Shown here piece by piece: positions 5,324 to 30,287 of a DNA stretch of 64,000 nt. The position numbers and the translations under genes were made by a program. Under the pieces are notes generated by a model. It saw only the letters and a list, made by a program, of their open reading frames with translations, was not told the origin of the DNA and did no database searches. Source of the stretch: a virus; the IMG/VR virus record IMGVR_UViG_3300014720_000002; one strand, written 5' to 3'. Position 1 is the first letter of the stretch, and each line of letters begins with the position of its first letter.

Positions 5324-5538
5324 TGGTGCGCAGTCCCATTACCGGCCAGGAGTATGTGGTCGAGGCTTCGGCGGGCGGCCTCGTCGGCACTTCTGTGGCT
5401 GTCATCAAGGCGGCTCTGGCGGGATGCAGCCGGGCTGAGGTCAAGGCGCAGCTTGCCAAAGGCCGGGAGCAGTTGCAGCGGGTCAGCCTGGCCGGCACGC
5501 CGGAGTTTTGGTGGGCGGTGGAGAAGATCGTTGGGTGA
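5323..5538 (+). CDS. Hypothetical protein
   Basis: TGATG overlap, 71 aa; stop abuts periodic array A. Confidence 0.65.
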   Translation: MVRSPITGQEYVVEASAGGLVGTSVAVIKAALAGCSRAEVKAQLAKGREQLQRVSLAGTPEFWWAVEKIVG

Positions 5539-5958
5539 TGGCGAGGCAGCGGCAGGTTCTGTTGCTCATTGGTAAGGTCCGTTAATGTCCGGCGCTGTGG
5601 AGTAAAGTGACGGTGAGGCTGGGCTGGGTCACGCATGGTGTTGGTATCGTCCCGATAGGTTACGTTCAGCAAGGTAGCGTGAAGGTGCAGCGCCGGTATG
5701 TCGGCGCCTGGTTTGATCTGGTCTTGCGCAGGTGGTGATCCGTAGCGTCAGGTGAAGTTTCGTCCGGGTGTGGCTCGTCAATGTCGCGCACTGTTCAGCG
5801 AAGGCACTGTGGATCTGGGCCTCGTTCTGTGGCGGTGTTGTGTTGTCCCGTGAGGTTTCGTATTGGTGCGGTAATGCACGCCTCGGCGCAGTGCCGGCAG
5901 GCTACGGTTAGGCCGGGCAATACAAGGCAACGCTTAGCAAAGGTTCAGCAACGCAATG
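5535..5958 (+). repeat. Periodic NNNGY array A (5-nt register with +1 slips)
   Basis: G at nearly every 5th base, usually followed by C/T; register slips at about 5572, 5613, 5644, 5685, ~5700-5711, 5732, 5768, 5804, 5835, 5866, 5897, 5943. Confidence 0.85.
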
Positions 5959-16377: not shown

Positions 16378-17030
16378 ACGACGAGCAACTGATCAGTTTG
16401 ATGGACAAGGTCGCGGAGGATCACGCCAGCCGAGGGCAGACCTACGCCGGCGGACCCTATCGCAAGCACCTGGAGGATGTGGAGCGCCTGCTGAGGACCG
16501 CCTGTAACGTCGCCTGGGTGGAAGAGGAGTCGGTCGGCGCTTTGCTTGCCGCCGGCATCCTGCACGACTGGTTCGAGGACTGCTTTGACGGGTCGCACAA
16601 GTTCTCACACTGGCGCCTGACCGGAACGCTGATTGACTGGCAGGGTGAGTTTGGCGTGCCAGCCGTCAGCCTGATGATGGCGCTGCGCTGCTCCGATCCG
16701 CCCGGCATGTCGCGACGTGAGGCCAAACGGGCTATCTTGCCGGTTATCGTGGCCTGCGAAGGTGCCCGGGCAGTCAAGCTGGCTGATCGGATGGCGAATC
16801 TGGAGCAGAGCATTGCTGACCGCAATCGAAAGCATCTGGAACGCTACATTGAAGAGGCTAGGCAGTTAGCGCCGGTGGCGGACCAGCTTGAGACTCCGGT
16901 TGATGCAGTGCAGGAGACTCGACACTACGCCCCGGTGCGAGACTACTTGGCTGGTTGCTATGCGGATGTCCTGGCTCGGGCCGCCGAGAGTTTTCATACT
17001 CTGCGCGGCCCGACCAATGCGGTGAAGTGA
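16374..17030 (+). CDS. RelA/SpoT-type HD-domain hydrolase (small alarmone hydrolase / Mesh1-like)
   Basis: H...Q...G.PY..HL..V, AGILHDWFED, AVKLADRMANL. Confidence 0.8.
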   Translation: MNDEQLISLMDKVAEDHASRGQTYAGGPYRKHLEDVERLLRTACNVAWVEEESVGALLAAGILHDWFEDCFDGSHKFSHWRLTGTLIDWQGEFGVPAVSLMMALRCSDPPGMSRREAKRAILPVIVACEGARAVKLADRMANLEQSIADRNRKHLERYIEEARQLAPVADQLETPVDAVQETRHYAPVRDYLAGCYADVLARAAESFHTLRGPTNAVK

Positions 17031-17373
17031 CGGTATTGGAACGCTTAGCCGCGTGCCGCCATGCCTAGCACAGGCTACGTGCGGTCCGGTCAGGTCTCGT
17101 AATGGTAAAGTGACGCAAAGTCGGGCTTCGTCGAGCGATGGCCGGGTGTGGTCAAGCAGGGTGTGGTGGTTCAAAGTTAAGGTGTCGCGTCGCCTAGTCA
17201 GGTCACGCGCCGGCAATGGATGGTGCCGTCCGGTTTAGCAGCGCAGCGGCATAGTGACGAAAAGGCCTGTAACGTGAAGCACAGGTAAGGTGCCGTGAGG
17301 CATGGTGAGGTCTGGCACAGGTAAAGCAGAGTCACGCGGGGTCCGGTTCAGGCGAGGATAGGTGGAGTCACGC
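17022..17373 (+). repeat. Periodic NNNGY array B
   Basis: G every 5th base (one miss, 17171); slips at 17033, 17074, 17105, 17141, 17182, 17213, 17249, 17285, 17321, 17352. Confidence 0.9.
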
Positions 17374-17376
17374 AGC

Positions 17377-17640
17377 ATGCAGATTCGATTGAAAGAACGC
17401 TGGCAGGCGTGGGTGGAGGTGTGGACCGCCATCCGCGCCTGCCATGCCGGCAGGAACGAGAAGCTGGAGGTGCGGCGCACCGGACAGGTCTGGGACGTCG
17501 GTGCCAGACAGTATCGCGAGCGGCTGGAGTTCCGGGCCGCCGACAACCCCGGCTGGGAAGGCTACAACCGCTCCCGGAACCTGCTGGCGACGAAGGTGCC
17601 GCGCCTGTCCAAGGCGCTGGAAAAGTTGAAGTGGATATGA
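17377..17640 (+). CDS. Hypothetical protein
   Basis: MQIRLKERW..., GGAG upstream at the end of array B. Confidence 0.65.
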   Translation: MQIRLKERWQAWVEVWTAIRACHAGRNEKLEVRRTGQVWDVGARQYRERLEFRAADNPGWEGYNRSRNLLATKVPRLSKALEKLKWI

Positions 17641-19183: not shown

Positions 19184-19194
19184 ACGCAGCGAAC

Positions 19195-19248
19195 GGCCCG
19201 CTGCCGGTCCAGTAGGATCGGCAGCGGGCCGGTTATCCAATCCTTTAG
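19195..19248 (+). terminator. Hairpin plus TCCTTTAG tail (hairpin family copy 2)
   Basis: GGCCCGCTGCCGGTCC-AGTA-GGATCGGCAGCGGGCC, then TCCTTTAG at 19241. Confidence 0.65.
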
Positions 19249-19251
19249 TTT

Positions 19252-20315: not shown

Positions 20316-20603
20316 ATGAGTAAGTCGGAGAAGCTGAGAAAATTGGCCAACGCCGTTCGGCGTTACCGCGGCCTGCTTGGATCGCCTGGGCATGACGGCG
20401 TGGTCCGGTGGAAGCAGCCACCCATACCTTCAGCCAAGGACGATGTCCGGCGCTGGCTGGGCAGGCTGGGCCTGGATGTGGAAGCGCATCTGCGGCGTGT
20501 GGACGAGTTTCCTTCGCTGCAGCAGTTCGCGGAATGGCTGGAAGAGTTGGAGAATGGCAATGAGCACGTTGTGGCAGGAACTTCGGAAGTGGGAAAATCA
20601 TGA
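20316..20603 (+). CDS. Hypothetical protein
   Basis: MSKSEKLRKLANAV..., 95 aa. Confidence 0.65.
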   Translation: MSKSEKLRKLANAVRRYRGLLGSPGHDGVVRWKQPPIPSAKDDVRRWLGRLGLDVEAHLRRVDEFPSLQQFAEWLEELENGNEHVVAGTSEVGKS

Positions 20604-21399
20604 AAAGAAACTGGCTGATCAGGCATTACCAGGCGGCGCTGGTGTTCGCGAGCCGGACCCGCAATCGCCCCCTGTCCGACTACGTTCGACAGGAGTTGAA
20701 AAGGTGGTCGGCGGCACCGTCCTCTGGAAGCCGGTCGATCGCCTAGCGGCTAAGATGCTGGCCAAGTCGCCCTGGTGGGCGCAGCCAGTGCATGTGCCGA
20801 CACCGCCACCAGCGGCGCCGGCTGCAGTTGAGAAGGCAAAAAAGAAGAGAACACACAAGATTATGGGAGACAACGCTGTCATTGTGGAGACAGGAGACAA
20901 GCGTGCGCCACAGGATGTCCGTCCGCGGATGAACGACGCGAGCTACACGAGCGCATGCGGGCTGGAGGTGCACCGGATCAACGGGCAGGACATGATTTCG
21001 CTGGAGAGTGCGCAGACTGTCCTCTGTGCCGAGATTGCGAAAATGCCCAAGGAGACGCGACCGCTGGTTTTGGCCGCCCAGGACGCCCGACGGATCGTTA
21101 ATGAGTTGACGGACGGCATTGGCGCCGATCAGGAAAAGTTCAGGGTCAGTGCCAAGATGTTCCTGGAGGATGTCCGCCAGACCCGGTTTGCGGTGGTGCA
21201 GGAGGCCAGCGCAATGATGACGCCATTGCGCGATGTCCGCACTTTCTTCCTGGGGCCGGATTACAAGGAGCAGGTGACCAGGTTGAAGGAGTTCGTGGAA
21301 CTTTGCGAGCGGCTGCAGAAGCTCAAGGAGTCGGGTTTCCTGGATAACGTCGCGGACACCATGCTGCGACTGGCAGATCGGCCAGCCACCGGCGCCTGA
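20560..21399 (+). CDS. Hypothetical protein (start 20560 or 20863)
   Basis: Long open frame with helical C-terminal half; start ambiguous. Confidence 0.6.
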   Translation: MSTLWQELRKWENHEKKLADQALPGGAGVREPDPQSPPVRLRSTGVEKVVGGTVLWKPVDRLAAKMLAKSPWWAQPVHVPTPPPAAPAAVEKAKKKRTHKIMGDNAVIVETGDKRAPQDVRPRMNDASYTSACGLEVHRINGQDMISLESAQTVLCAEIAKMPKETRPLVLAAQDARRIVNELTDGIGADQEKFRVSAKMFLEDVRQTRFAVVQEASAMMTPLRDVRTFFLGPDYKEQVTRLKEFVELCERLQKLKESGFLDNVADTMLRLADRPATGA

Positions 21400-21405
21400 T
21401 TGAAT

Positions 21406-21483
21406 GCGCTGTGGTGCTTGGAAAGGTCTCGTGCGGTCGCGTTAAGTCACGGTCCAGTGAGGGCGTGGCAAAGTCCTGCGCGG
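21406..21483 (+). repeat. Short periodic NNNGY array C
   Basis: G at 21406, 11, 16, 21, 26, 31, 36, 41, 46, 51, then slips at 21452 and 21468. Confidence 0.75.
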
Positions 21484-21529
21484 AACCGCACCAGTTGGGC
21501 TTCGGCCCGCTGGTGCGGTTTCCTTTAGC
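21482..21529 (+). terminator. Hairpin with cUUCGg loop plus TCCTTTAGC (hairpin family copy 3)
   Basis: AACCGCACCAG-TTGGGC-TTCG-GCCCG-CTGGTGCGGTT-TCCTTTAGC. Confidence 0.7.
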
Positions 21530-21647
21530 CATCCACTCCCGCAACCAAGCACGCCGCTGTGTCATAAGCCTTTGGACAGGACTGTTTCTTGTCTGGGAGC
21601 ATCCGGCCTCCAACCATTTAAGCAACTGCCGGAAGGAGAACTGTAAC

Positions 21648-22730
21648 ATGTCAAAGATCAAAGAGGCGGCGATCCTCAAAATCGTCACTCATCCCGGCCG
21701 GGCGCACCGGGATGAGTTTCTGGCCATCGCCATCGTGCTGGCCAGCCTGCCCGCCGCGCAGATGCGGCAGGTCGCCATCGAACGCCGTCAACCCAAGCGC
21801 GAGGACACCCTGGATAAGGGCGTGCTGGTGCTGGACATCGGCGGCGGTGAATTCGACCACCACCAACTGTCCCCAGAGGCGCCGGCGACCTGTGCGCTCA
21901 CCCTGGTGCTCAAGGACCTCGGGCTGCTGGAGCAGGCGCGCGAGGTCTGGTCGTGGCTGGAGTTTGTCGAGGTCATGGACAGCAAGGGACCGGGGGCGGT
22001 CGCCTCGCGCGCCGGCGTGCCCTGGGACAAGCTCTCCGGGCTGACCATGAATCCGGTCGAGATGTGGGCGCTCCATTGGTTCGCCAACAACCCGGACAAC
22101 ATGAAGGACGTGCTCAACGGCGTCGGTGCCCGGTTGTTGTCCGAGCTTGCGGACTACCGGTCGGCCCTGACCCTCCTGGACGCGCACGCCCATGTGGTGT
22201 TCGTGCGCGGGGTGGCGTTGCTCGACCTCACATTCACGAGCGACACGACCGCCGTCAACAAGTGGCGCATGCAGCACTGCCCTCACGCCAAGGGCAGCAT
22301 CATGAAGGACGACCGCGGCGGGGGCTACACGCTCTACGCCTGGCAGATGGGCGGCGGGTCCGGCTGGCTGGACTTCCGCCGGCTGGCGCATCCCGGCATC
22401 ACCTTCATCCACAATGGAGGGTTCCTGGCCAAGACGCGGATGACGGTGACGTTCCGTGAGGTTCTGGATCTGCTGACACAGGCGCTGCCGTCGGAGCCGG
22501 TCTGCCTCGGCAGCATGGTGGGCAATGGGTTCTCGGTGCAGGGAAGCTGGCAGCCGGCGCCGACAGATGACGGATCGCATTTCGTCATGGTGACGATCGG
22601 GACGGCCAAGCACGGGTGTGTGGAAGGTATGCTCTGCTTCCGCACGGAGGCGGCGCTGCGCTCGGCCATGAGCCATGTGCGCAACCGCATTGAGATCAGC
22701 CTGTCGAAGGGGGAGGTGGCCCATGCTTGA
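21648..22730 (+). CDS. MYG1-family (DHH superfamily) metal-dependent hydrolase/exonuclease
   Basis: VTHPGRAHRDEFLA...LDIGGGEFDHHQ; AAGGAG RBS before ATG 21648. Confidence 0.75.
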   Translation: MSKIKEAAILKIVTHPGRAHRDEFLAIAIVLASLPAAQMRQVAIERRQPKREDTLDKGVLVLDIGGGEFDHHQLSPEAPATCALTLVLKDLGLLEQAREVWSWLEFVEVMDSKGPGAVASRAGVPWDKLSGLTMNPVEMWALHWFANNPDNMKDVLNGVGARLLSELADYRSALTLLDAHAHVVFVRGVALLDLTFTSDTTAVNKWRMQHCPHAKGSIMKDDRGGGYTLYAWQMGGGSGWLDFRRLAHPGITFIHNGGFLAKTRMTVTFREVLDLLTQALPSEPVCLGSMVGNGFSVQGSWQPAPTDDGSHFVMVTIGTAKHGCVEGMLCFRTEAALRSAMSHVRNRIEISLSKGEVAHA

Positions 22731-22860
22731 AGTGCGCATGCACTGGCGCCGAGGTCATCTGCACACAGTGAAGTTCGGCAAGGGTCGGGAGAGTTCCCGG
22801 CTGGACTGGTTCGAGCCGATATTGGTCAATGCGCCGGAAGGAAAGGAGGTGAACGTATGA
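22723..22860 (+). CDS. Small hypothetical protein
   Basis: GGAGG RBS; overlaps both neighbours. Confidence 0.55.
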   Translation: MLEVRMHWRRGHLHTVKFGKGRESSRLDWFEPILVNAPEGKEVNV

Positions 22861-23213
22861 GCGAAAAGAGTGAGCAAGTGCTGCGGGACGCCATCGAAAA
22901 ACATGTTGGCGCACTACTTCACGCAGAGTTGCAACGGGACGAACTGCATGTCTATCTGTCCTGGGACAAAGCTAGTGGAAAAGTCACGGTTAATTGCTTC
23001 TCGACCTTGGCGCTGAACCTTCTCGATCGATCGCATAAGACCACCGTCGGCGGCTTGGACGAGTTGATCGACAGCGTGTTGGAGGGCTGCGACCGAAAGC
23101 AGGCCAAGGTTTGTCTGGACCAGATACAGGCAAGCTTGGACAAGGCTCGTGCTGGCTGGCAGAAAGTATGCGCTGAGTGGGATCGGGAACATCGACCTGC
23201 GAATCGCAGGTAA
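22857..23213 (+). CDS. Hypothetical protein; last of the small-gene block
   Basis: GGAGG RBS, 118 aa; stop abuts array D. Confidence 0.7.
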   Translation: MSEKSEQVLRDAIEKHVGALLHAELQRDELHVYLSWDKASGKVTVNCFSTLALNLLDRSHKTTVGGLDELIDSVLEGCDRKQAKVCLDQIQASLDKARAGWQKVCAEWDREHRPANRR

Positions 23214-23590
23214 AGCAAAGGTGAGGCGAGGTGTAGCATCGTTGCGTGCGGTTCAGGTGTAGTGCCGTGAAGATGGGTAATGTAAAGCGCCGGCGAGGTG
23301 ATGCTTGGTGTGGTGGCATCGCGTTTGGAACAGTATTGGAGACGCGGCGCACAGCATGGTAGCGCAATGTGGTGGCGTCGTATCGAGGCGCTGAGTATTG
23401 GCCTGGCACGGCGGCGGTGGGCACCGTAAAGCTACGGCATGGTCACGTCAGGTTCAGTGCAGCACAGGTAACGCGACGCAAGGTTCGGTTTCGTGCTGTC
23501 ACGTATCGGTTTGGGTGGGTCGAGCGCTGGGCTGTCAGGCAAAGGCGAGGCGGGGTCTGGTCCGGTTTCGTTACGTCGTGCGCTGTGCCG
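23210..23590 (+). repeat. Periodic NNNGY array D
   Basis: About 75 register positions, G at all but one (23318); slips at 23221, 23257, 23293, 23339, 23375, 23401, 23437, 23468, 23509, 23545. Confidence 0.9.
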
Positions 23591-23639
23591 ACGAACACCA
23601 GTTGGGGCGCAAGCCCTGGCTGGTGTTCGTCCTTTAGCT
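23591..23639 (+). terminator. Hairpin with GCAA loop plus CCTTTAGCT (hairpin family copy 4)
   Basis: ACGAACACCAG-TTGGGGC-GCAA-GCCCTGG-CTGGTGTTCGT-CCTTTAGCT. Confidence 0.7.
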
Positions 23640-23680
23640 ATCAGTTGAAACTCCCGCCGGATTGCGGCACGCTCCGCCTG

Positions 23681-24433
23681 ATGTCTGAGCCCCGTGTCAC
23701 CGCCATCGTCGTCAACTGGCGCCGTCCCGACAACGTCCAGCGGATTCTCCGCGCACTGCGCCAGTCGTCGGCGCGCTGCCACATCATCGTCTGCGATGTC
23801 CGGGTGGATGAGACCTATCGGAAGGACACCTTCTTTGAAGGCGCCGACGAGGTTCTCCACCTGTCCCGCAACCACGGCGGTTTCAACCGGCTGGTGCCCG
23901 CCATGCTTGTGCAGACCGAGTTCACCTACTTCCATGACGATGACCTGCTGCCCGGACCCGAGGCGCTCGCCGCCCTGATGCGTTGCGCTGACGGCATGCT
24001 GGGCATGGGCGTGCTTGGCCAGATCGGACGGGTCTATCCAGACGGGCAGTTCGGGACGGATGATGTGCTGCGCGATGAGCACGTCTGCGTGCCGGTGGAC
24101 AACGTCATCCGCGGCGCGCTCGTCCGCTCGGCACTGCTGCCCGGCGTCATGCACTTCTGGCATCGCCACGGGCGCAACTTCATCACGCCGGAGGGGTTGG
24201 TGCATGATGACCTGATGCTGAGCTTCGCGCTCCGCTCCGCCGGGCACATCAACCGGCTCACGCCCGCTGACCACCGCAACGACACCATGATCAACAGCGA
24301 GGAGTTGCCGGACCAGTATGCACTCAGCCGCCGGCCCCAGCACCGACCCGAGCGCGCCGCCATTGTGGCATGGTTCAATCAGCAGTTTCCCGGCCGGCTC
24401 ACCCCGCTGCTGCCGGCGGTCCATGTTGTATGA
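23681..24433 (+). CDS. GT-A fold glycosyltransferase
   Basis: VTAIVVNWRRP...IIVCD...YFHDDDLLP (DxD); true start after array D. Confidence 0.75.
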   Translation: MSEPRVTAIVVNWRRPDNVQRILRALRQSSARCHIIVCDVRVDETYRKDTFFEGADEVLHLSRNHGGFNRLVPAMLVQTEFTYFHDDDLLPGPEALAALMRCADGMLGMGVLGQIGRVYPDGQFGTDDVLRDEHVCVPVDNVIRGALVRSALLPGVMHFWHRHGRNFITPEGLVHDDLMLSFALRSAGHINRLTPADHRNDTMINSEELPDQYALSRRPQHRPERAAIVAWFNQQFPGRLTPLLPAVHVV

Positions 24434-27231: not shown

Positions 27232-27282
27232 GAAGTGGGCGGGCTGGGGCGCAAGCCCTGGGCTGTCCACTTCCTTTTAGCT
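27232..27282 (+). terminator. Hairpin with GCAA loop plus CTTTTAGCT (hairpin family copy 5)
   Basis: GAAGTGGGC...GGGC-GCAA-GCCC...GTCCACTTC-CTTTTAGCT. Confidence 0.65.
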
Positions 27283-30192: not shown

Positions 30193-30237
30193 CAGCTAAA
30201 AGAAAGCTATCCGACGGGGGTAGTTTTCTTTTAGCTG
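30193..30237 (+). terminator. 20-bp inverted repeat ending TTTCTTTTAGCTG (hairpin family copy 6)
   Basis: CAGCTAAAAGAAAGCTATCC-GACGG-GGGTAGTTTTCTTTTAGCTG. Confidence 0.7.
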
Positions 30238-30287
30238 TTGGGTGTGTGGTGTTGCCATTCCGCTACCGGGCTGGCACGCTGTCCGGC

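What the first reader, a model, noticed from the sequence alone, without database searches (positions are those of the whole stretch)
21406..21529. Short array C coupled to the same hairpin that closes array D
Seen: a ~78-nt NNNGY tract runs directly into ACCAG-TTGGGC-TTCG-GCCCG-CTGGT...TCCTTTAGC. Array D runs into ACCAG-TTGGGGC-GCAA-GCCCTGG-CTGGT...CCTTTAGCT. The inner stem and tail are shared, the outer stems differ but both pair, and both loops are stable tetraloops (UUCG, GNRA). Inference: array plus hairpin is one unit, possibly a discrete 3'-UTR-derived RNA or a protein-controlled terminator analogous to TRAP attenuation.
Basis: partly seen in the sequence, partly recalled or inferred. 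Interest (0 to 1): 0.7.

Follow-up and report, generated by a model that had tools for sequence, protein, structure and literature searches.

The report
VIPR guide array capped by terminator-like hairpin
This is a short string of guide RNAs for a phage-borne, CRISPR-related VIPR silencing system, sitting between a gene's stop codon and a strong hairpin of a kind this phage also places after genes that have no guides, so it is a new example of a recently described system, not a new kind of RNA switch.

Summary
Window 21406-21483 carries 15 GYNNN pentamers (G 100%, Y 93%) in three runs, each closed by an extra G. They run directly into an 18-bp hairpin (21482-21522, -34.5 kcal/mol) followed by CUUUAGC. 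Array D ends in a homologous 19-bp hairpin with the same tail.

The tract is a VIPR vrRNA array of the staggered, YNNNG type (bioRxiv 10.64898/2026.04.26.720920). A Cas7-fold Vipr gene lies 29 kb upstream of array C. In 71 of 80 viral contigs with a homolog, such an array lies within 1.5 kb of the gene.

The hairpin is not specific to arrays. A third paralog (27232-27281) follows an ordinary gene. At least four more hairpin-UUUAG elements sit at gene ends. Arrays A and B have none, and arrays in relatives show no hairpin enrichment. Seven of 19 stem pairs covary among the three paralogs, and G-U pairs favour the + strand RNA.

Most likely it is a terminator-like or 3'-end-protecting gene-end hairpin that also caps the last guide. 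I found no TRAP protein, no GAG/UAG repeats and no antiterminator. No guide target was found.

Earlier follow-ups of this scan had already called arrays B and D of this genome VIPR arrays, and had found VIPR arrays in other genomes.

The parts
20863..21399 (+). Upstream gene of unknown function (longest ORF starts at 20377). Its stop TGA at 21397-21399 lies 6 nt before array C.
   Evidence: ORF list. No Pfam or PHROG match.
21406..21451 (+). Array C unit 1: nine GYNNN pentamers plus a closing G (46 nt). This is the only full-length guide in array C.
   Evidence: Phase parse, composition, significance.
21452..21462 (+). Array C unit 2: two pentamers plus G (11 nt). The same kind of mini-unit opens arrays A, B and D.
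21463..21483 (+). Array C unit 3: four pentamers plus G (21 nt). Its last bases are the first bases of the hairpin.
21482..21522 (+). Hairpin C: 18-bp stem with one bulged U and a cUUCGg tetraloop.
   Evidence: -34.5 kcal/mol, z -5.4. -33.4 on the + strand against -30.4 on the - strand. CM hit at 31 bits.
21523..21529 (+). Conserved tail CUUUAGC directly after the stem.
   Evidence: Shared with D, the 27232 copy and others.
21535..21542 (+). ACTCCCGC block, shared with the region after hairpin D (23650-23657). Role unknown.
   Evidence: Alignment. Eleven copies genome-wide, mostly in coding DNA.
21648..22730 (+). Next gene, with a MYG1/UPF0160-like N-terminus. It starts 118 nt after the tail.
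   Evidence: Pfam PF03690, E 3.6e-6.
23210..23590 (+). Array D: 74 pentamers in 11 units. The last unit (nine pentamers plus G) ends on the first base of hairpin D.
23590..23638 (+). Hairpin D (perfect 19-bp stem with three G-U pairs, cGCAAg loop) plus tail CUUUAGC.
   Evidence: -40.7 kcal/mol, z -6.7. -36.9 on the + strand against -29.8 on the - strand.
27232..27281 (+). Third paralog of the hairpin (inner CUGGGGC-GCAA-GCCCUGG as in D) plus tail CUUUUAGC. It starts 4 nt after the stop of an ordinary gene, with no array upstream.
   Evidence: (upstream array score 12.3 against 27-30 for C and D).
30193..30237 (+). Unrelated stem with the same UUUUAGCUG tail, between a 155-aa gene and the phage RNA polymerase gene.
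   Evidence: CM hit at 18 bits.
19194..19249 (+). 16-bp hairpin (-40.9 kcal/mol), followed 10 nt later by TCCTTTAGT. It lies at a gene end with no array.
5541..5955 (+). Array A (about 80 pentamers). It runs up to the next ATG with no closing hairpin.
17019..17376 (+). Array B (69 pentamers). It runs up to the next ATG with no hairpin-UUUAG element.

Best explanation
Array C is a minimal VIPR guide-RNA (vrRNA) array of the staggered GY-NNN (YNNNG) type. It holds one full 46-nt guide and two short units. It is transcribed as the 3' UTR of the upstream gene and read by the phage's Cas7-like Vipr protein, which is encoded 29 kb upstream of array C (7.6 kb before the window). The hairpin is a separate element. 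It belongs to a family of long G+C-rich stem-loops followed by C-UUU(U)-AG that this phage puts right after stop codons. In C and D the array sits between the stop codon and that hairpin. The hairpin most likely ends or pauses transcription, protects the RNA 3' end from exonucleases, or both. That would fix and stabilise the 3' end of the last guide. Shown here: the array, the Vipr fold, the link between the Vipr family and such arrays, the hairpin family and its covariation, and its independence from arrays. Inferred: transcription, processing into guides, Vipr loading, and termination or 3' protection.
For: Array: period-5 G signal and (GYNNN)k+G units identical in form to arrays A, B and D. 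No background window reaches its score. The unit form matches the published staggered arrays with 1-nt overlaps and YNNNG repeats. Protein: L004:4073-4930 has a conserved GLGQWRSGGxG loop. Its AF2 model (pLDDT 76) matches type VII Cas7 and Csm3 at Foldseek E 1e-7, probability 1.0. At least 526 IMG/VR stretches encode relatives. In 71 of 80 fetched loci a strong same-strand period-5 array lies within 1.5 kb of the gene, against 2 of 79 farther than 3 kb away. Hairpin as a general gene-end element: copies at 27232, 30193, 19194 and genome 9087 and 29895 start no more than about 10 nt after a stop codon and have no array upstream. TTTAG occurs only 19 times on the + strand of 167.6 kb, and 7 of these directly follow a strong hairpin. 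RNA-level selection: 98% of cells paired, and 7 of 19 pairs show compensatory change among C, D and E, with 0/500 shuffles as high. G-U pairs make the + strand fold 3-7 kcal/mol better than the - strand. UUCG and GNRA loops and a U-rich tail are typical of intrinsic terminators (established knowledge). Some relatives close their arrays with textbook terminators: L012, and L035 twice.
Against: The U-tract is short (C-UUU-AGC). The simple terminator scan did not flag C or D. Stems of 18-19 bp are longer than usual for intrinsic terminators. At 30193 the next gene starts 9 nt after the tail, so full termination there would need a promoter overlapping the element. No RNA data exist, and the host and the transcribing polymerase are unknown. 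The conserved AGCYRU after the Us is not explained by a plain terminator. The hairpin begins at or within one base of the closing G of the last unit in both C and D, which hints at more than chance adjacency. No target was found for the guides. No vap gene was sought. The arrays are far from vipr, unlike in most relatives.
Confidence: 0.6

Rival explanations
1. The hairpin is an RNA processing site, for example for host RNase III or a phage nuclease. It would cut the array-bearing 3' UTR away from the downstream message, as at T7 intercistronic RNase III sites, and would not be a terminator.
For: The stems are long and nearly perfect at 18-19 bp. The U-tract is short. Genes follow closely on the same strand, 9-54 nt after the tails at 30193, D and 27232 (118 nt after C), so read-through seems needed. 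Such hairpins recur every 2-3 kb between 19 and 30 kb. The sequence after the stem is conserved.
Against: There is no internal loop of the T7 R1.1 type. UUCG and GNRA loops with a U-run directly after the stem are the terminator signature. No RNase III gene was looked for, and the host is unknown.
Confidence: 0.17
2. The hairpin plus CUUUAGC is this phage's counterpart of the structured 3' tail of type II vrRNAs. It would be a handle that nucleates or stops the Vipr filament, so that array C plus hairpin is one vrRNA of about 125 nt.
For: Type II vrRNAs are 9-16 repeats plus a conserved structured tail of about 40 nt, and the tail is taken to confer competence for Vipr complex formation. C and D end in a conserved structured element of about 48 nt. 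It starts on, or one base before, the closing G of the last unit.
Against: Arrays A and B (149 of 238 pentamers) have no such element. The same element follows ordinary genes with no array. It is absent from 80 relatives. Shared 3' flanks between arrays of one locus are rare in this Vipr clade, 3 of 68 loci.
Confidence: 0.12
3. A Vipr-controlled attenuator, in the TRAP style. A Vipr filament on the last pentamers would melt or block the base of the hairpin and so set read-through into the downstream gene.
For: The 5' arm of each hairpin begins at the array's last unit. The outer stem, which differs between C and D, is the part next to the array.
Against: No alternative antiterminator structure is predicted, and nascent-RNA pairing of the 5' arm is no stronger than at the array-less copy. 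The same hairpin works in contexts with no array. No TRAP is encoded. The repeats are not (G/U)AG. Array ends in relatives show no such coupling.
Confidence: 0.07
4. Array C is a decayed remnant or a chance G-rich tract with no function, and only the hairpin matters.
For: It is short. Two of its three units (11 and 21 nt) are shorter than nearly all units in the other arrays (most are 31-46 nt). No target was found.
Against: It has 15 of 15 G and 14 of 15 Y in register, with the correct +1 G at each junction. Its score exceeds every background window. It is on the same strand and in the same kind of site as array D.
Confidence: 0.04

Closest known systems
VIPR systems with staggered vrRNA arrays and YNNNG-type repeats (bioRxiv 10.64898/2026.04.26.720920, Results and type classification)
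   Same: Phage-borne. A Cas7-like minimal RAMP. Five-nucleotide repeats with a fixed G and pyrimidine and variable other positions. Units joined with a one-base overlap. No CRISPR repeats or other cas genes nearby.
   Different: The arrays are not beside vipr. They are spread over four sites 13-31 kb downstream, inside unrelated operons. The targeting rule for three variable bases is not published, and no target was found here. No vap gene was identified.
Structured 3' tail of type II vrRNAs (SUSP1 and P. fulva clades) and solo vrRNAs (bioRxiv 10.64898/2026.10.15.759431)
   Same: A repeat tract followed directly by a conserved, structured 3' element of about 40-50 nt. Arrays encoded away from vipr resemble solo vrRNAs.
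   Different: Here the element is a plain long hairpin, not a pseudoknot. It closes only two of four arrays, once per array and not once per guide. It also occurs after ordinary genes.
Rho-independent (intrinsic) terminators
   Same: G+C-rich stem, UUCG or GNRA tetraloop, U-run right after the stem, position just after a stop codon, and a better fold on the sense strand.
   Different: The stem is 18-19 bp, about twice the usual length. There are only 3-4 Us, followed by a conserved AGCYRU. Same-strand genes follow closely.
TRAP-mediated attenuation of the Bacillus trp operon
   Same: A periodic protein-binding RNA tract lies immediately upstream of a terminator-like hairpin.
   Different: The repeat is GY-NNN, not (G/U)AG with 2-3 nt spacers. 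There is no TRAP gene and no antiterminator/terminator alternative. The likely binder is a helical Cas7-like filament that guides DNA recognition.
T7-type intercistronic RNase III sites
   Same: Long hairpins between same-strand phage genes that would leave a protective 3' stem on the upstream RNA.
   Different: No internal loop or bulge pattern typical of T7 sites. No cleavage data.

Membership tests
VIPR system | A Vipr protein: a minimal RAMP/Cas7-like fold with a G-rich loop | tested here: met
   L004:4073-4930 (genome 40072-40932). Conserved GLGQWRSGGxG loop. The AF2 model matches type VII Cas7 and Csm3 at E 1e-7, probability 1.0, TM (target) 0.5-0.59. No sequence-level match in PDB, Pfam or PHROGs.
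VIPR system | vrRNA of tandem 5-nt repeats with conserved G/Y positions and variable positions, at least four units | tested here: met
   15 pentamers in array C and 238 in arrays A-D, with G 91-100% and Y 91-94%. Array C exceeds all 47,650 background windows.
VIPR system | Physical link between the vipr gene and its arrays | tested here: inconclusive
   Not adjacent in this phage: no array near vipr, and arrays lie 13-31 kb downstream. But 71 of 80 relatives of this protein have an array within 1.5 kb, so the family is array-linked.
VIPR system | Staggered array architecture (units share one base at their borders) | tested here: met
   Most units are 5k+1 nt (11-46 nt; array A has a short irregular stretch), and every unit but the last of array B is followed by a G. 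This matches the legend of Fig. S18.
VIPR system | Guides specify a natural target through a gapped code | tested here: inconclusive
   No match above the shuffled-guide level in the phage's own genome under 12 rules. No exact match for guide C1 with skip 0 or 1 in viral contigs or genome contigs. The rule for NNN-type repeats is not published.
VIPR system | vrRNAs are expressed, processed and bound by Vipr | not testable with these tools
   Needs small-RNA sequencing and pull-down.
VIPR system | Accessory vap gene | not tested
   The neighbours of vipr were not analysed.
Type II vrRNA 3' tail | An invariant structured tail after each vrRNA's repeat tract | tested here: not met
   The element is present only after arrays C and D and absent after A and B. 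It also occurs without any array. There is no hit in 80 relatives.
Intrinsic terminator | Stable G+C-rich stem-loop just downstream of a gene end | tested here: met
   -34.5 and -40.7 kcal/mol. The array-less family members start no more than about 10 nt after a stop codon.
Intrinsic terminator | U-tract directly after the stem | tested here: inconclusive
   C-UUU-AGC (in C the stem's last bases make UUUCCUUU). This is below the threshold of the consensus scan. T-runs are otherwise rare in this 62% G+C genome.
Intrinsic terminator | Transcript 3' ends in the U-tract | not testable with these tools
   Needs Term-seq or in vitro transcription.
TRAP-type attenuator | 9-11 (G/U)AG triplets separated by 2-3 nt | tested here: not met
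   The fixed positions are G and Y, and the next three positions are variable.
TRAP-type attenuator | Mutually exclusive antiterminator and terminator | tested here: not met
   No specific competitor structure is predicted. The hairpins contribute -19 to -28 kcal/mol net, and the array-less control behaves alike.
TRAP-type attenuator | TRAP (MtrB, PF02081) protein | tested here: not met
   No match in the 167.6-kb phage record, while the control search rings in Bacillus subtilis. The host genome is unknown.

The most novel reading that the evidence does not exclude
In staggered VIPR arrays, which have no per-guide tail, a terminal hairpin that begins exactly at the closing G of the last unit acts as a physical stop or nucleation point for the Vipr filament. 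Conversely, Vipr loading onto the last pentamers opens the base of the hairpin and lets transcription run into the downstream gene. Guide loading and operon read-through would then be coupled.
Probability: 0.1. Interest if true: 0.6.

Novelty: new member of a known kind. Interest (0 to 1): 0.3.

Why it matters
VIPR systems were first described in 2026, and how staggered arrays are transcribed, bounded and processed is not known. This phage shows guide arrays placed in the 3' UTRs of unrelated operons, far from vipr. Two of them are slotted between a stop codon and a pre-existing gene-end hairpin. That suggests a simple way for arrays to acquire a defined, protected 3' end without a dedicated tail, and it gives clean constructs for testing this. 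It also warns against reading any conserved structure next to a vrRNA array as part of the guide. Beyond that, the finding is an expected feature of a known system.

Tried and rejected
(1) Strict-phase GY counts and a fixed-period Fourier scan were weak, because the register slips by +1 at each unit. Lag-5 autocorrelation and a phase-tolerant parse worked.

(2) Rfam found nothing at gathering threshold over the window, nor at E<=1 over 21300-23800.

(3) The search for close relatives failed.
- The MYG1-like protein found no relative in viral contigs or metagenome contigs.
- Hairpin-plus-tail DNA patterns gave only chance hits in A+T-rich coding DNA.
- blastn against GenBank phages gave no match.
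So the 75-86% identical Vipr relatives (P0002-P0004) and the 194-kb contig holding P0001 could not be fetched.

(4) MAFFT misaligned hairpin C. I built the model from D and E only and let Infernal align C.

(5) The pre-filter of the genome search missed C with that model. The search with filters off found it.

(6) Guide targets: 12 read/skip rules against the phage's own genome gave nothing above shuffled guides. This includes the guide-beside-its-target idea from other genomes. Exact skip-0 and skip-1 patterns for guide C1 found nothing in viral or prokaryotic contigs.

(7) K-mer enrichment in intergenic DNA gave no clear phage promoter motif.

(8) TRAP-like attenuation was rejected on repeat type, lack of an antiterminator and lack of TRAP.

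(9) DNA-level cruciform or protein-binding palindrome is unlikely. G-U pairs make the + strand RNA fold clearly better than the - strand.

Full report
**What is there.** After the TGA at 21397-21399 the + strand reads GCGCT GTGGT GCTTG GAAAG GTCTC GTGCG GTCGC GTTAA GTCAC G, GTCCA GTGAG G, GCGTG GCAAA GTCCT GCGCG G. It then runs into GGAACCGCACCAGUUGGGC-UUCG-GCCCGCUGGUGCGGUUUC followed by CUUUAGC. All 15 pentamers start with G, and 14 have a pyrimidine second. The other three positions vary, and each run is closed by one extra G. G autocorrelation peaks at lags 5, 10 and 15 (0.31, 0.20, 0.21), while coding controls are flat. A phase-tolerant score for the 85-nt tract is 31.6. None of 47,650 windows elsewhere in the 167.6-kb genome, on either strand, exceeds 25.4. 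Genome-wide, only four tracts stand out. All are on the + strand and all are intergenic: A 5541-5955, B 17019-17376, C, and D 23210-23590.

**What the arrays are.** The preprint describes phage-borne minimal RAMP proteins (Vipr). It describes vrRNAs made of 5-nt repeats with conserved G/Y and variable positions. Its variants include YNNNG repeats and 'staggered' arrays whose units overlap by one base. Arrays A-D are built that way. Most units are 5k+1 nt long (mostly 31-46 nt), and a G follows every unit but the last of array B.

The candidate vipr gene (L004:4073-4930) starts 8.5 kb and ends 7.6 kb before the window. It has no sequence match in PDB, Pfam or PHROGs. Eighteen homologs share a GLGQWRSGGxG loop. 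The AlphaFold model (pLDDT 76) matches type VII Cas7 and Csm3 at Foldseek E 1e-7. At least 526 stretches in IMG/VR encode relatives. In 71 of the 80 fetched loci, a strong same-strand period-5 G array lies within 1.5 kb of the gene. Only 2 of 79 have one farther than 3 kb away. The protein family is therefore tied to such arrays, and array C is best read as a small vrRNA array. This phage is unusual in that no array is next to vipr.

**The hairpins.** C folds at -34.5 kcal/mol (z -5.4) and D at -40.7 (z -6.7). The stems have 18 and 19 pairs, with cUUCGg and cGCAAg loops. A third copy lies at 27232-27273. It has D's inner sequence and the tail CUUUUAGC. It starts 4 nt after the stop of an ordinary gene, and nothing array-like lies upstream.

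A covariance model built from D and that third copy alone finds C as the next best hit in the window (31 bits, E 2e-6). It finds two other gene-end hairpins weakly, at 535-586 and 30197-30239. Across the three paralogs, 98% of cells pair. Seven of 19 pairs change on both sides, no shuffle of 500 matches this, and sliding the partner drops pairing to 30-52%. The caveats are that there are only three sequences and that the alignment was fitted to the model. G-U pairs make the + strand fold better than the - strand: -33.4 against -30.4 for C, -36.9 against -29.8 for D, and -34.4 against weaker than -26 for the third copy. The stem is therefore selected as + strand RNA.

**The hairpin is not array-specific.**
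- TTTAG occurs only 19 times on the + strand of the whole genome. Seven of these directly follow a strong hairpin: genome 9087 and 29895, and window 19194, C, D, 27232 and 30193.
- Only C and D of these have an array upstream.
- Arrays A and B run up to the next ATG with no such element.
- The model finds nothing in 1.18 Mb from 80 Vipr-encoding relatives.
- In those relatives, array ends are no richer in stable hairpins than control sites (13% against 9% at -20 kcal/mol or below).
- They are also no richer in hairpin-plus-T-run sites (12% against 17%, p 0.34).
- Arrays within one locus seldom share a 3' flank (3 of 68 loci).
- A few relatives do close their arrays with textbook terminators: L012, and L035 twice.

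**Most likely mechanism.** The phage places long G+C-rich hairpins followed by C-UUU(U)-AG right after stop codons. In C and D an array sits between the stop codon and the hairpin. I read the hairpin as a terminator-like or 3'-end-protecting element that also fixes and stabilises the 3' end of the last guide (confidence about 0.6).

Several points weaken this reading. The U-run is short, and the simple scan does not call C or D. The stems are unusually long. Same-strand genes follow within 9-120 nt. The conserved AGCYRU is unexplained. These points leave room for a processing site (0.17), a tail-like handle (0.12) and Vipr-dependent attenuation (0.07).

For TRAP-style attenuation I found no GAG/UAG repeats. 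I found no specific antiterminator, and the array-less copy behaves the same. No TRAP gene is present. One detail favours a closer link. In both C and D the hairpin starts on, or one base before, the G that closes the last unit.

**What could not be done.** No guide target was found under 12 read/skip rules in the phage's own genome. Exact skip-0 and skip-1 patterns for guide C1 also found nothing in viral and prokaryotic contigs. The comparative test therefore rests on distant relatives (33% Vipr identity or less) and on three paralogs.

**Verdict.** This is a new member of the VIPR kind, with dispersed staggered arrays, capped here by an ordinary-looking gene-end hairpin. Earlier follow-ups of this scan had already called arrays B and D of this genome VIPR arrays. 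My added result is that the shared hairpin is a stand-alone element.

Noticed in passing
window 17401-17444: A very stable hairpin lies 24 nt into the 87-aa gene that starts right after array B. It folds at -39.4 kcal/mol on the + strand against -30.3 on the - strand. Its frame has GC3 0.86, so it is in coding sequence. It has no UUUAG tail. It may affect translation or mark an RNA end after array B.
   Followed up: partly
window 5934, 17045, 17235: TTAGC is rare: 26 copies on the + strand of 167.6 kb, against about 110 expected from base composition. Three of them lie inside arrays A and B (CGCTTAGC twice, GGTTTAGC once), besides the two hairpin tails. It could be a processing or boundary signal.
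   Followed up: no
window 5530-5540, 17019-17029, 23210-23220, 21452-21462: Arrays A, B and D each open with a mini-unit of two pentamers plus G (11 nt), which overlaps or abuts the upstream stop codon. Array C has the same mini-unit internally. They share no sequence, and their role is unknown.
   Followed up: no
G000:C1:40072-40988 (7.6 kb before the window): The vipr gene has no adjacent array, unlike 71 of 80 relatives. Thirteen nt after its stop lies a 44-nt hairpin with perfect central pairing (-36 kcal/mol) and no U-tract.
   Followed up: partly
window 30193-30248: An A-rich/U-rich inverted repeat (AGCTAAAAGAAAGCTA...TAGTTTTCTTTTAGCT) fills the gap before the phage RNA polymerase gene. 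The longest-ORF start of that gene is only 9 nt after the tail. It looks like a bidirectional terminator, yet it leaves no room for a promoter.
   Followed up: no
L035:10461-12180: A relative with 44% G+C carries two long staggered GC-NNN array blocks. Each is closed by a canonical terminator with a T6 run, which makes it a clean case of an array as a terminal transcription unit.
   Followed up: partly
window 21535-21542 and 23650-23657: An ACTCCCGC block follows both the C and D tails at 5 and 11 nt. It is not seen after the 27232 copy. Meaning unknown.
   Followed up: partly
This probably reflects ambiguity codes or a second assembly version. None falls in 21400-21650 or 23200-23700.
   Followed up: partly
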